Virus record (IMG/VR): IMGVR_UViG_2563366933_000008
Length of the DNA stretch: 51,815 nucleotides
Direction: 5' to 3' (one strand)
Source: a virus
Taxonomy: Duplodnaviria; Heunggongvirae; Uroviricota; Caudoviricetes
Shown: one piece after another, positions 32,001-35,000 of the stretch
Numbering within the stretch: position 1 is the first letter of the stretch
Layout of the letters: each line of letters opens with the position of its first letter
Program-made: the position numbers

Positions 32001-35000
32001 ATTCAGTTCGATAACAAACTCCAGACACAGCGTTGTATCGGGACTGGCTCGCCTTATGCAGGAGCAAATATTCCGACTACTTTTACACCGTCCGGTACGG
32101 TGACGCTTTCATGGTCTAAAGCCGCGTGGGAAATCTGGAGTAAAACACTGACTGGAGAAACAGTTCCGTTCAGCTTCACGCTTTCGAATGGAGAGGGGGC
32201 ATACACTTTCAGTTTCCCGAAGGTTCAGGTGTCAGGTGAATGGCCTGATGGGGGTAATAGCGACATTATCCAGGTTCAATTGAGCATTACCGCAGCAGAT
32301 GAAGCACCTACGATAACCAGAAAAAAAAATTCCCCGGCTGCCGTGATCGCAAAAGCCAGTGCTGAGGCGATTAGTTGATTTTCCGTTATTCCTCCTGTGG
32401 TACTGCCCTACAGGGGGACGCATTGAATGAGGTTATGGATGTTTATTCTTAATCAGAAAATTATCATTGGTGGAGAACGCTGGTTTACGCCAATGAAGGA
32501 CTTAAAACCTGTAGACGGGTTAAAACTGTTGGTGGCAAGCAGCGATAACGATCAGTATCGCTCCCGTAATGCATTAATCCGTCGCCACATTGAGAAAATG
32601 GATGCCAGTTTGCACGTCGGAACGAAGGAGTTTGATATTTCAAAGGTTTCCGAGGTGGATTCTGTTGATGATTTACTCATTGATAATGCTGCTCGTTATC
32701 TGCTGAAAGACTGGAAAGGGGTTGGTGAACTGGTTGATGGTGTTGAGGTTGCACTGGAATATACGCCAGAACGAGGGATCGCGCTGCTTAAGCAGAATCC
32801 GGAGTTGTACTGGCAGATCCTTGCAGAAGCAGCCAGCATCGCCCAGGGTAAAGAGCAGCAGAAGCAGGATACGATAAAAAAGCCATAGCCGCCCAGCGGT
32901 GGTTATCGGAGTTCGGGGGAGAAAAGGGTGAAAAGGCAAGATGGAAGCGAGAAAAACTCAGGTTGCCACCGATACCGGAACCAGAAATAGACCCGGTGCT
33001 TAAGGAATTGTTGTACGCCTATTCGGTAATATCCCGTGCCCGACGTTATGCTGGAATGACTGGGGTGCCTTTGCCTTTATCTCTGACAGAGATAAATGAA
33101 TATTTAGCCACTCATCCGGTATTGATTGAGCGCGATGAATTTGAAGCAGTGATCTTTGCACTGGATGACCAGTATTTTCAGGAGCAGTGTGTGTAGTTGT
33201 TAATTACGTACACTCTGTTACAGAGATGTGATGGTGTCTTTAATTAAATCGATGATGCTCCTGGAGAAAAGCATTGCGTGGCCTCGTAATCGCTATATCT
33301 ACTATTATGTCGCCTGAAACCCACTTCGGTGGGTTTTTTGTTGTCAGGAGTTTTAATGAATGGCAGAGCAAACCTCGCGTCTCGCAATAATTATTGATAG
33401 CACTGGAGCGAAAAATAATGCTGACAATCTGGCCTCCTCATTAGTCAAAATGACGCAGGCTGGGGAAACTGCTGCAAATAGCGCAGGGAAAGTGACTAAG
33501 GCAACAGAAGATGAGAAGAACGCGCTCGCAAAATTAAAAGCAGCTATTGATCCAGTTGGTGCCGCAATTGATACTGTCGGTCGACGCTATTCTGAATTAA
33601 AGAAATTTTTCGATAAAGGGCTTATTGATAAAGAAGAATATGAATTTCTTGTCCGTAAACTTAATGAAACCACAGAGGAATTGAGCGGGGTTGCGCAAGC
33701 GCAGAGAGAAGCCGAGAAGGCCGGAAAACTTGCTGCCGCCCAGCAGGAAGCGCAGGCTCAGGCCTTTCAAAGAATGCTGGACAAGATCGACCCTCTGGCT
33801 GCGGCGCTAAGAAATCTTGAACAACAGCAGGATGAACTTAATGCTGCGTTTGCATCCGGGAAAATAAATGGTTCTCAGTTTGAGAATTATAGCCGAAAAA
33901 TACAGGAAACACGGCGAGAGCTTACCGGAGAGGCTCAGGCAGAGCGAGAAGCAGCAAAAGCGCATGATGAACAGGTTGCTGCTTTGCAACGTCTGATTGC
34001 TCAACTTGATCCTGTCGGAACTGCTTTTAATCGTCTGCTAGAACAACAGAAACAGCTCAATGAAGCAAAAGCTAAGGGGATGCTTTCTCCTGAAATGTAT
34101 GAGGAGCTTTCTGGAAAACTTCGTGCTATGCGGAGTGAGCTTGAGGTTACTCAATCGCAATTAAGCAAAACCGGAATGTCGGCAAAACAAACGGCTTTTG
34201 CTATGCGCATGTTGCCTGCACAAATGACGGATATTGTTGTTGGGTTGTCCACTGGTCAGTCGCCATTTATGGTGTTAATGCAGCAGGGCGGCCAGCTAAA
34301 AGATATGTTCGGTGGGATTGGCCCGGCGATCAAAGGTGTAGGTTCTTATGTGCTGGGATTAATTAATCCTTTTACCCTGGCCGCAGCAGCCGTTGGCGTC
34401 TTAGGGCTGGCTTACTATAAAGGCTCTCAGGAGCAGGACGAATTTAATAAATCTCTTATTCTTACCGGAAATCAGTTGGGGACAACCAGCGGGCAATTGG
34501 CCGATATAGCTCAACGTGCCGGGAATGCGGCTGATTCGACAACTGGCGCTGCGGCGGCAGTATTAAACCAGCTTGTGCGTTCGGGAAAGGTAGCGAGCAG
34601 TTCGCTGGAGCAAGTGACGACAGCGATAGTAAAAACGAGCGAAGTAACAGGAATATCAACCGAACAACTGGTTAATGACTTCAATGAAATTGCAAAGGAT
34701 CCTGTCAGTGCTATATCAAAACTTAATGATCAGTACCATTTTCTGACACTTGCGACTTATAACCAGATTAAGGCGCTACAGGATGAAGGGAACCAGCAGG
34801 AGGCCGCCCGCATTGCGACAGAAGCATACTCATCCTCAATGATCCAGCGCACCAACCAGATTAAAGAAAATCTTGGTTATCTTGAGACTGCATGGAAAGC
34901 TGTCGCAGACTCCGCAAAATGGGCATGGGATTCCATGCTGGATATTGGCCGTGAGGCCTCCCTTGATCAAAAAATCTCAGATGTTCTCCGTCAAATTGAT

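What the first reader, a model, noticed from the sequence alone, without database searches (positions are those of the whole stretch)
32876..33196. Programmed -1 frameshift site (A_AAA_AAG) joining the tail chaperone to a downstream ORF
The slippery heptamer A AAA AAG lies two codons before the chaperone stop, and the -1 frame is open from that point through the ORF annotated at 32963..33196. This matches the conserved G/GT recoding used by lambda-like tails and means the downstream ORF should not be annotated as an independent gene.
Basis: partly seen in the sequence, partly recalled or inferred. Interest (0 to 1): 0.45.

Follow-up and report, generated by a model that had tools for sequence, protein, structure and literature searches.

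The report
Tail chaperone G/GT frameshift, Rac-like prophage
An E. coli Rac-type prophage almost certainly makes a second, longer tail-assembly chaperone when some ribosomes slip back one base at A_AAA_AAG; this is an ordinary example of a well-known phage mechanism, but none of the public records I checked annotates it for this gene family.

Summary
A_AAA_AAG lies at 32876-32882 in the X_XXY_YYZ register of the chaperone ORF (32439..32888). The -1 frame is open from 32852 to 33196 and runs into the TTG ORF 32963..33196. The pair sits between the tail tube gene and the tape measure gene of an intact Rac-like prophage.

Comparative evidence supports a programmed -1 ribosomal frameshift giving G (149 aa) and GT (252 aa). 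In about 200 related loci the second ORF is in the -1 frame in all but two damaged copies. A slippery N_NNA_AAG sits at a nearly invariant lysine, whatever the distance to the zero-frame stop. Raoultella and Acinetobacter relatives carry G_GGA_AAG there instead. The 81 nt between the slip site and the TTG evolve as coding sequence only in the -1 frame. The TTG is CTC in relatives. The fusion matches a PHROG chaperone profile end to end, and the G model has a chaperone fold.

No conserved stimulatory RNA structure was found. No product was measured, so efficiency is unknown.

The mechanism is textbook. What is new is that it applies to the YdaY family. PGAP calls G 'protein YdaY' with a truncated start and leaves the T part hypothetical or unannotated, also in K-12. 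Interest is low.

The parts
32439..32888 (+). Gene G: tail assembly chaperone, zero-frame product of 149 aa and 16.9 kDa. It belongs to the YdaY family (precomputed Pfam PF27119). PGAP starts it at TTG 32529, giving 119 aa.
32876..32882 (+). Slippery heptamer A_AAA_AAG, the -1 shift site (tandem slippage of tRNA-Lys).
   Evidence: Register checked. Kept at the homologous, nearly invariant Lys148 in Enterobacterales relatives, with the zero-frame stop 10, 28, 82 or 112 nt away. Replaced by G_GGA_AAG in Raoultella and Acinetobacter phages. The third base of the preceding Val/Ile codon is A in 12 of 12 sequences that have AAA AAG.
32882..33196 (+). T segment: the -1 frame extension of 104 codons plus the stop at 33194-33196. 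It is read only after the shift. Full product GT = join(32439..32882, 32882..33196), 252 aa, 28.8 kDa.
   Evidence: Open frame. For 32882-32962 the -1 frame has pN 0.15-0.22 against pS 0.7-1.0 in 12 relatives about 65-70% identical over this stretch (0.02 against 0.24 in a 13th, 94% identical), and no stop in any of the 13. Frames 0 and +1 show no such signal and usually carry stops. phrog_1189, E 1.7e-36. Weak Pfam Phage_TAC_18 matches in 4 of 5 divergent members, all below the curated cut-off. Mass.
32963..33196 (+). The mechanical 'ORF' from TTG. It is not an independent gene; the TTG is an internal Leu codon of GT.
   Evidence: There is no ATG, GTG or TTG in the -1 frame between 32852 and 32962. 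The same codon is CTC, CTA, CTG or TTA in relatives, and the protein sequence upstream of it is conserved. Gene callers place the start inconsistently, giving products of 60-138 aa.
32883..32909 (+). Hairpin predicted immediately 3' of the heptamer in this E. coli variant. It is probably not a required stimulator.
   Evidence: Part of the minimum-free-energy fold of 32883-32972, total -26.4 kcal/mol, z -1.55. Not conserved in 13 relatives: RNAalifold -2.1 kcal/mol with no covariation.
32866..32869 (+). SD-like AGGA 6 nt upstream of the heptamer. A possible weak modulator, confounded by coding (Gln-Asp/Glu).
   Evidence: Read. Present as AGGA or AGGAG in the Enterobacterales relatives except Erwinia phage Gungnir39. 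Untested.
31416..32378 (+). Tail tube (major tail) gene, upstream neighbour and presumed partner of the T domain.
   Evidence: Pfam Phage_tube_2, E 9e-32.
33360..36593 (+). Tape measure protein gene, downstream neighbour and presumed partner of the G domain.
   Evidence: Pfam TMP_2, E 5e-82, and Tape_meas_lam_C.

Best explanation
This is a programmed -1 ribosomal frameshift of the G/GT type.

What is shown and what is inferred:
- Most ribosomes translate the chaperone gene 32439..32888 to its TAG and release G (149 aa).
- A minority slip back one base when the P and A sites hold AAA and AAG of A_AAA_AAG (32876-32882). They re-pair with AAA AAA and continue from GCC (32882) in the -1 frame to 33196. 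This gives GT (252 aa): G minus its last proline, plus a 104-aa T domain.
- By analogy with lambda (inferred, not tested), G and the G part of GT coat the tape measure protein. The T part recruits the tail tube protein. Neither product ends up in the virion.
- The shift appears to depend mainly on the heptamer itself (inferred); no conserved stimulatory structure was found.
- I expect an efficiency of a few per cent or less (inferred).
- The anatomy and its evolutionary conservation are shown. The product and its ratio are inferred.
For: - Anatomy: the heptamer is in register and the -1 frame is open for 114 codons, with no start codon before 32963.
- Position: between the tube gene and the tape measure gene, followed by M-like and L-like minor tail genes.
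- Enterobacterales loci: in 100 related loci T is in the -1 frame in 99, and most keep A_AAA_AAG, although the zero-frame stop lies 10, 28, 82 or 112 nt downstream.
- Heptamer exchange: Raoultella changed two codons together (GTA AAA to GTG GGA), producing G_GGA_AAG. Of 80 Acinetobacter-group loci, 79 have G_GGA_AAG, and 21 of 21 Pseudomonas-group loci have G_GAA_AAG at the homologous lysine.
- Conserved residue: Lys148 is invariant or nearly invariant in alignments reaching 23% identity.
- Coding signal: the 81 nt before the TTG are under purifying selection only in the -1 frame.
- Profile match: the fusion matches PHROG 313 over positions 20-246 of 258 at 176 bits, against 161 bits over positions 15-149 for G alone.
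- Separate ORFs: among 1.84 billion representative proteins the G-type hits nearly all end at query residues 146-154 and the T-type hits are short separate ORFs.
- Fold: the G model resembles tail assembly chaperones.
- Motif strength: A_AAA_AAG and G_GGA_AAG are among the three most efficient -1 motifs measured in E. coli (PMC4066793).
- Precedent: the G/GT shift is widely conserved in long-tailed phages (PMC5009743).
Against: - No protein, ribosome-profiling or reporter data exist here, so neither the product nor its level is demonstrated.
- No conserved downstream RNA structure was found. The local hairpin is not significant (z -1.55).
- Without a stimulator these motifs gave only about 0.3% shifting in a reporter, so the real level could be very low.
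- G has no detectable sequence similarity to lambda gpG and no hit in the local Pfam copy.
- The T matches to Pfam Phage_TAC_18 are all below the curated cut-off.
- The AF2 model of the whole fusion was poor.
Confidence: 0.9

Rival explanations
1. T is an independent small gene translated from TTG 32963 or another internal start. The heptamer is then coincidental.
For: the ORF listing finds a 77-aa ORF from TTG. Some annotation pipelines call it 'hypothetical protein'.
Against: - AGG abuts the TTG, so there is no usable SD spacing.
- The codon is CTC, CTA, CTG or TTA in relatives.
- The 27 codons upstream of it are conserved as protein in the -1 frame, with pN far below pS and no stops.
- Called starts are inconsistent, giving products of 60-138 aa.
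- PHROG 313 models the two parts as one protein.
Confidence: 0.04
2. The fusion arises from transcriptional slippage. RNA polymerase adds one A in the A6 run (32876-32881), and the edited mRNA encodes GT in frame.
For: One extra A in the run gives exactly the same protein. Homopolymeric A runs can cause polymerase slippage; this is established knowledge, reviewed in PMC5009743.
Against: - The run is only 6 A long. From my own knowledge, efficient slippage usually needs about 9 or more.
- Relatives keep the arrangement with G_GGA_AAG or G_GAA_AAG, whose longest A run is 3 or 4. Those relatives still conserve a tRNA re-pairing pattern in the correct codon register.
Confidence: 0.04
3. This is a decayed gene or a sequencing error: one original G-T gene broken by a 1-nt deletion in a homopolymer.
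For: A few database proteins are in-frame fusions or carry indels here (P0001, P0003, P0194). The K-12 copy lies in a defective prophage.
Against: - The same two-frame layout occurs in 1075 complete E. coli genomes.
- It also occurs in relatives from Citrobacter, Klebsiella, Raoultella, Erwinia, Pseudomonas and Acinetobacter.
- P0001 is explained by a 35-nt deletion between direct repeats, not by the ancestral state.
Confidence: 0.01

Closest known systems
Phage lambda G/GT programmed -1 frameshift (Levin, Hendrix and Casjens 1993; Xu, Hendrix and Duda 2004, 2013, 2014; summarised in PMC5009743)
   Same: - Two overlapping ORFs between the major tail gene and the tape measure gene.
- The second ORF is in the -1 frame with no start of its own.
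- An efficient N_NNA_AAG heptamer lies near the end of G. Lambda uses G_GGA_AAG, as do the Raoultella and Acinetobacter relatives here.
- No conserved stimulatory structure was found here. From memory, lambda does not need one either.
   Different: - The heptamer here is A_AAA_AAG, followed by one sense codon and then the stop; in lambda five sense codons follow.
- There is no detectable sequence similarity of G to lambda gpG (hhalign probability 0.2%).
- Neither G nor T matches lambda-type Pfam families.
- The tube protein is of the Phage_tube_2 type.
E. coli O157 Sakai prophage Sp9 ECs1801 tail assembly chaperone, cluster A_AAA_AAG_25 of Sharma et al. 2014 (PMC4066793, Table S4), listed there as a safely inferred frameshift
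   Same: An E. coli prophage tail chaperone with the same A_AAA_AAG heptamer at the very end of the gene (AGA AAA AAG TAG). The -1 shift gives a longer product.
   Different: The protein family is unrelated: BLASTP finds no alignment. It is 124 aa, and its stop directly follows the heptamer. The YdaY family is not in that paper's list.
HK97 tail assembly chaperone (PDB 2OB9)
E. coli dnaX gamma/tau frameshift
   Same: The same A_AAA_AAG heptamer and the same tRNA-Lys slippage in the same host.
   Different: From established knowledge, dnaX has an SD-like element 10 nt upstream and a strong downstream hairpin, shifts at about 50%, and gives a shorter product. Here AGGA lies only 6 nt upstream, no conserved hairpin exists, and the product is longer.

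Membership tests
G/GT-type tail assembly chaperone recoding (functional class) | Two overlapping ORFs located between the major tail/tube gene and the tape measure gene | tested here: met
   Tube gene 31416-32378 (Phage_tube_2), G 32439-32888, T to 33196, tape measure gene 33360-36593 (TMP_2).
G/GT-type tail assembly chaperone recoding (functional class) | Slippery sequence in the overlap, in the register of the upstream frame, leading into the downstream frame | tested here: met
   A_AAA_AAG at 32876-32882, with the -1 frame open from 32852 to 33196.
G/GT-type tail assembly chaperone recoding (functional class) | Downstream ORF lacks its own conserved start, and its coding signal begins at the slip site | tested here: met
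   No ATG, GTG or TTG before 32963. The TTG is not conserved. Selection on the -1 frame holds across 32882-32962.
G/GT-type tail assembly chaperone recoding (functional class) | Arrangement and slipperiness conserved among diverged relatives | tested here: met
   About 200 loci. T is in the -1 frame in nearly all. A_AAA_AAG, G_GGA_AAG or G_GAA_AAG sits at the same lysine.
G/GT-type tail assembly chaperone recoding (functional class) | Frameshift fusion protein actually made, at a low fixed ratio to G | not testable with these tools
   Needs a western blot, mass spectrometry, a reporter assay or ribosome profiling.
G/GT-type tail assembly chaperone recoding (functional class) | G binds the tape measure protein, T binds the tube protein, and both are absent from virions | not testable with these tools
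   Inferred from lambda (PMC5009743).
Tail assembly chaperone fold (HK97 chaperone 2OB9-like) | Structural similarity of G to solved or predicted tail assembly chaperones | tested here: met
PHROG 313 'tail assembly chaperone' | Significant full-length profile match | tested here: met
   G alone: E 5.9e-47 over positions 15-149 of 258. Fusion: E 1.7e-51 over positions 20-246 of 258.
Lambda gpG / gpT sequence families | Detectable sequence homology to lambda gpG, or a Pfam lambda-type G/T domain | tested here: not met
   hhalign probability 0.2% against lambda gpG. No Pfam hit for G in the local copy. Lambda gpT itself was not compared.
Pfam PF23812 Phage_TAC_18 (T part) | Score at or above the gathering threshold of 27 bits | tested here: inconclusive
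   Scores of 20.4, 16.0, 13.7 and 21.6 bits in 4 of 5 divergent members, each aligned across most of the profile but all below the cut-off.
dnaX / IS-type stimulated A_AAA_AAG frameshift | Conserved downstream hairpin or pseudoknot, and an SD-like element 10-14 nt upstream | tested here: not met
   RNAalifold consensus -2.1 kcal/mol with no covariation. AGGA lies only 6 nt upstream and is confounded by coding.

The most novel reading that the evidence does not exclude
Within this one chaperone family the shift site has been rebuilt several times at the same lysine codon. The forms seen are A_AAA_AAG, G_GGA_AAG, the non-canonical G_GAA_AAG (21 of 21 Pseudomonas-group loci) and C_GCA_AAG followed directly by TAA (Erwinia phage Gungnir39). 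If the last two are functional, the family shows that an A_AAG A-site slip is enough for a biologically tuned G/GT ratio, given near-cognate P-site re-pairing or an adjacent stop. A second possibility is that the Rac remnant in E. coli K-12 still expresses a frameshifted YdaY-T product.
Probability: 0.4. Interest if true: 0.35.

Novelty: new member of a known kind. Interest (0 to 1): 0.22.

Why it matters
The main value is for annotation. This chaperone family occurs in about a fifth of complete E. coli genomes (1075 of 5426), in Klebsiella, Citrobacter and related prophages, and as a remnant in K-12 Rac. RefSeq names it 'protein YdaY' with a start copied from the truncated K-12 relic. The T part is 'hypothetical' or missing, and no examined record joins the two.

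Correct annotation would be join(32439..32882, 32882..33196) with ribosomal slippage. That gives YdaY a function, removes a spurious small ORF, and adds a family with several heptamer variants for training frameshift predictors. It does not change what is understood about the mechanism.

Tried and rejected
- Conserved downstream stimulatory RNA. A local hairpin exists in this variant but is not conserved and shows no covariation. Rejected as a family feature.
- AF2 of the whole 252-aa fusion. It gave pLDDT 52.7, with the G part below 50, and the Foldseek PDB search on it returned nothing below E = 1. It was uninformative, so I repeated the prediction with G alone and a more diverse alignment.
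- PDB search by sequence profile. It returned only a chance ribosomal-protein hit, E 0.28.
- NCBIfam scan of the fusion. No family matched.
- Third homologue search, using alignment A1. It returned the same close relatives and no new diversity.
- Literature. Searches for 'ydaY' with 'frameshift', and for 'Rac prophage' with 'tail assembly' and 'frameshift', found nothing relevant. Xu et al. 2004 is not held, so I could not check whether Rac was in its list of 28 phages.
- ECs1801. I tested whether the prophage A_AAA_AAG cluster of Sharma et al. 2014 is this family. It is not.
- Independent initiation, transcriptional slippage and pseudogene readings. All were considered and given low weight (see the rival explanations).
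Full report
**1. The observation**

The chaperone ORF ends ...GAT ACG ATA AAA AAG CCA TAG, with the stop at 32886-32888. A_AAA_AAG occupies 32876-32882 in the X_XXY_YYZ register of that frame.

The -1 frame has a TAA at 32849-32851 and is then open for 114 codons to the TAG at 33194-33196. It contains the mechanically listed ORF TTG 32963..33196. No ATG, GTG or TTG occurs in that frame between 32852 and 32962.

The likely start of the chaperone is ATG 32439. It has GAGG 6 nt upstream, and homologues begin MFILN or MIILN. This gives G = 149 aa. The shifted product, join(32439..32882, 32882..33196), is 252 aa and 28.8 kDa.

As a control I listed every in-register X_XXY_YYZ heptamer in open frames of at least 100 codons of the window. 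There are 133. Six belong to the efficient class (A_AAA_AAG, G_GGA_AAG, C_CCA_AAG). Only the one at 32876 lengthens the product; the other five meet a stop after 7-31 codons.

**2. Context**

The window is an intact Rac-type prophage of E. coli.
- The stretch 32300-33400 is 100% identical to strain N1420.
- The left end carries an ORF I take to be the integrase (not tested), the RalA antitoxin sRNA of Rac, and ORFs in the size and position of recET (not tested).

Around the site lie a tail terminator-like gene, a tail tube gene (31416-32378, Pfam Phage_tube_2), the G/T pair, a tape measure gene (33360-36593, TMP_2 plus Tape_meas_lam_C), and M-like and L-like minor tail genes. This is the canonical position of tail assembly chaperone genes.

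**3. What G and T are**

G:
- It has no hit in the local Pfam copy or in NCBIfam. The precomputed label is PF27119, which the local copy lacks.
- It matches PHROG 313 'tail assembly chaperone' at E 5.9e-47.
- The fusion matches the same 258-position profile over positions 20-246 with a higher score, 176 against 161 bits. That profile therefore models G and T as one protein.
- An AF2 model of G alone, built on a diverse alignment, is confident (pLDDT 86.4, pTM 0.78).
- Foldseek against BFVD gives 18 hits at E <= 1e-3. The named ones are tail assembly or tape measure chaperones, and several have GT-like lengths of 230-270 aa.

T:
- It matches phrog_1189, of unknown function.
- It matches Pfam Phage_TAC_18 weakly but repeatedly, in 4 of 5 divergent members and across most of the profile. 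All scores are below the curated cut-off.

There is no detectable sequence relation to lambda gpG (hhalign probability 0.2%).

**4. Comparative evidence for recoding**

A tblastn search with the fusion finds relatives in prophages and phages of Klebsiella (66% identity), Erwinia (56%), Pseudomonas (32%) and Acinetobacter (33%). Where both parts are matched, the match is split into two pieces. In each case examined, T lies in the -1 frame and overlaps the end of G.

I collected about 200 loci.
- Among 100 Enterobacterales-type loci, T is in the -1 frame in 99.
- The exception, L075, has two 1-nt deletions in the T linker.
- Most of these loci keep A_AAA_AAG, although the zero-frame stop lies 10, 28, 82 or 112 nt downstream. 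The heptamer is therefore conserved independently of the stop.

The AAG codon encodes Lys148. It is invariant in the 12-sequence alignment and nearly invariant in a 48-sequence alignment that reaches 23% identity.

The heptamer varies between groups, always at this same lysine.
- A Raoultella prophage has GTG GGA AAG instead of GTA AAA AAG. This double change recreates a canonical heptamer, G_GGA_AAG, the lambda one.
- 79 of 80 Acinetobacter-group loci have G_GGA_AAG.
- 21 of 21 Pseudomonas-group loci have G_GAA_AAG.
- Erwinia phage Gungnir39 has C_GCA_AAG followed directly by TAA.

Where the second codon is AAA, the third base of the preceding Val/Ile codon is A in 12 of 12 diverged sequences. 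Nearby four-fold degenerate sites vary freely.

**5. Coding signal upstream of the supposed start**

I analysed the 81 nt between the slip site and the TTG (32882-32962) in 13 diverged relatives.
- In the -1 frame, pN is 0.15-0.22 against pS 0.7-1.0 in the 12 more distant relatives, and 0.02 against 0.24 in the closest one. No relative has a stop.
- In frames 0 and +1, pN is similar to or above pS, and most relatives carry 1-3 stops.

The protein stretch AIAAQRWLSEFGGEKGEKARWKREKLRL is recognisably conserved in Klebsiella, Citrobacter and Erwinia. The TTG codon is CTC, CTA, CTG or TTA elsewhere.

This stretch is therefore translated in the -1 frame, yet it has no start codon of its own. That is what a frameshift predicts and what independent initiation cannot explain.

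Two further results agree. Gene callers find G in hundreds of clusters but T in only 25, with lengths of 60-138 aa. In a search of 1.84 billion representative proteins, G-type hits nearly all end at query residues 146-154 and T-type hits are short separate ORFs. The few sequences that span the junction are fragments or assemblies with indels.

**6. Stimulators**

In this E. coli variant a hairpin is predicted directly after the heptamer (32883-32909). The 90-nt fold is not unusual against shuffles (z -1.55). Thirteen relatives share no structure there: the RNAalifold consensus is -2.1 kcal/mol with essentially no covariation.

AGGA, or AGGAG in some relatives, lies 6 nt upstream of the heptamer. 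It is encoded by Gln-Asp/Glu codons, so its conservation cannot be separated from coding.

I conclude that the heptamer is the main determinant.

Sharma et al. 2014 measured C_CCA_AAG, G_GGA_AAG and A_AAA_AAG as the most efficient -1 motifs in E. coli. They gave about 0.3% shifting without a stimulator in that reporter, and more in favourable contexts (PMC4066793). The lambda G:GT ratio is about 30:1 (PMC5009743). The efficiency here is unknown.

**7. Rivals**

- Independent initiation at the TTG is contradicted by section 5.
- Transcriptional slippage on the A6 run would give the same protein. But the run is short, and relatives with G_GGA_AAG or G_GAA_AAG keep the arrangement without a long homopolymer while preserving a codon-register re-pairing pattern.
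- A broken gene or sequencing error is excluded. The same layout occurs in 1075 complete E. coli genomes and across genera.

**8. What is known, and novelty**

The G/GT frameshift is a classic of phage biology and is described as widely conserved in long-tailed phages (PMC5009743; PRFect paper PMC10885494).

Sharma et al. 2014 list one E. coli prophage chaperone cluster with A_AAA_AAG (ECs1801 of Sakai Sp9) as safely inferred. I fetched that gene. It ends AGA AAA AAG TAG but has no BLASTP similarity to the G here. It is a different family that uses the same heptamer.

For the YdaY family I found no record that joins the two ORFs.
- The phage records call them 'hypothetical', 'putative protein YdaY' or separate 'tail assembly chaperone' genes.
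- RefSeq PGAP calls G 'protein YdaY' from TTG 32529 (119 aa). This copies the N-terminally truncated K-12 relic. It leaves T hypothetical or unannotated.
- No paper in the searchable library links Rac or ydaY with this frameshift. Xu et al. 2004 could not be read.

I therefore rate it as a new member of a known kind: correct, useful for annotation, and unsurprising to a specialist.

**9. Verdict**

- My confidence is 0.9 that a programmed -1 ribosomal frameshift at 32876-32882 yields a 252-aa GT protein.
- Interest is low (0.22).
- The most novel reading still open concerns the heptamer turnover at one lysine codon, including the conserved non-canonical G_GAA_AAG and the A_AAG-plus-stop variant. 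It would interest recoding specialists if shown to be functional.

Noticed in passing
window 32529-32888; L004 2493-2852 (E. coli K-12 MG1655): The K-12 gene ydaY is the N-terminally truncated relic of this tail assembly chaperone. K-12 keeps the slip site and the whole unannotated T ORF, followed by the truncated tape measure pseudogene ynaA. PGAP carries the truncated 119-aa start (TTG 32529) over to intact prophages, where the real protein is 149 aa.
   Followed up: partly
window 32823-32832 and 32858-32867 (direct repeats GCAGAAGCAG); protein P0001: An E. coli isolate (NB16F79_39920, 240 aa) carries a natural in-frame G-T fusion. Deleting the 35 nt 32833-32867 between the two 10-nt direct repeats reproduces its junction. 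Such a prophage would make only GT and no free G, so it is probably tail-defective.
   Followed up: yes
L007 and L104-L124 (Pseudomonas phiPSA1 group); L006 1684-1695 (Erwinia phage Gungnir39): Distant relatives have non-canonical shift sites at the homologous lysine. G_GAA_AAG occurs in 21 of 21 Pseudomonas-group loci. GTC GCA AAG TAA occurs in Gungnir39, where only A_AAG is slippery and a stop follows directly. T is still in the -1 frame in both.
   Followed up: partly
window 33316-33345: A terminator-like hairpin (GAAACCCAC TTCG GTGGGTTT) followed by a T run lies in the 163-nt gap between the T stop and the tape measure start, inside what should be one late operon. The exact sequence is present in 18 of the related loci fetched.
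   Followed up: partly
window 30227-30236: G_GGG_GGA lies 7 nt before the stop of ORF 29841-30236, whose TGA overlaps the ATG of the next gene (30236-30619) lying in the -1 frame. This is probably just ordinary gene overlap. That heptamer shifted at only 0.04-1% in the E. coli reporter data of PMC4066793.
   Followed up: no
window 1557-1735, 13377-13552 and 16887-17040: Rfam finds the RalA antitoxin sRNA (a Rac marker) and a sok antitoxin RNA of a hok/sok-type module. ARAGORN finds tandem tRNA-Thr(TGT) and tRNA-Gly(TCC) genes inside the prophage.
   Followed up: no
L075 about 1983 and 2011 (IMG/VR UViG_2513237361_000013): One otherwise 97%-identical copy has two single-base deletions in A-rich runs of the T linker. 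They put the rest of T out of the -1 frame. This is either a decaying prophage or homopolymer sequencing errors.
   Followed up: partly
L103 15002-15376 (O157 Sakai Sp9, ECs1801): An unrelated E. coli prophage chaperone also ends AGA AAA AAG TAG. The RefSeq record lists it and the downstream ORF ECs1802 as separate genes, without slippage.
   Followed up: partly
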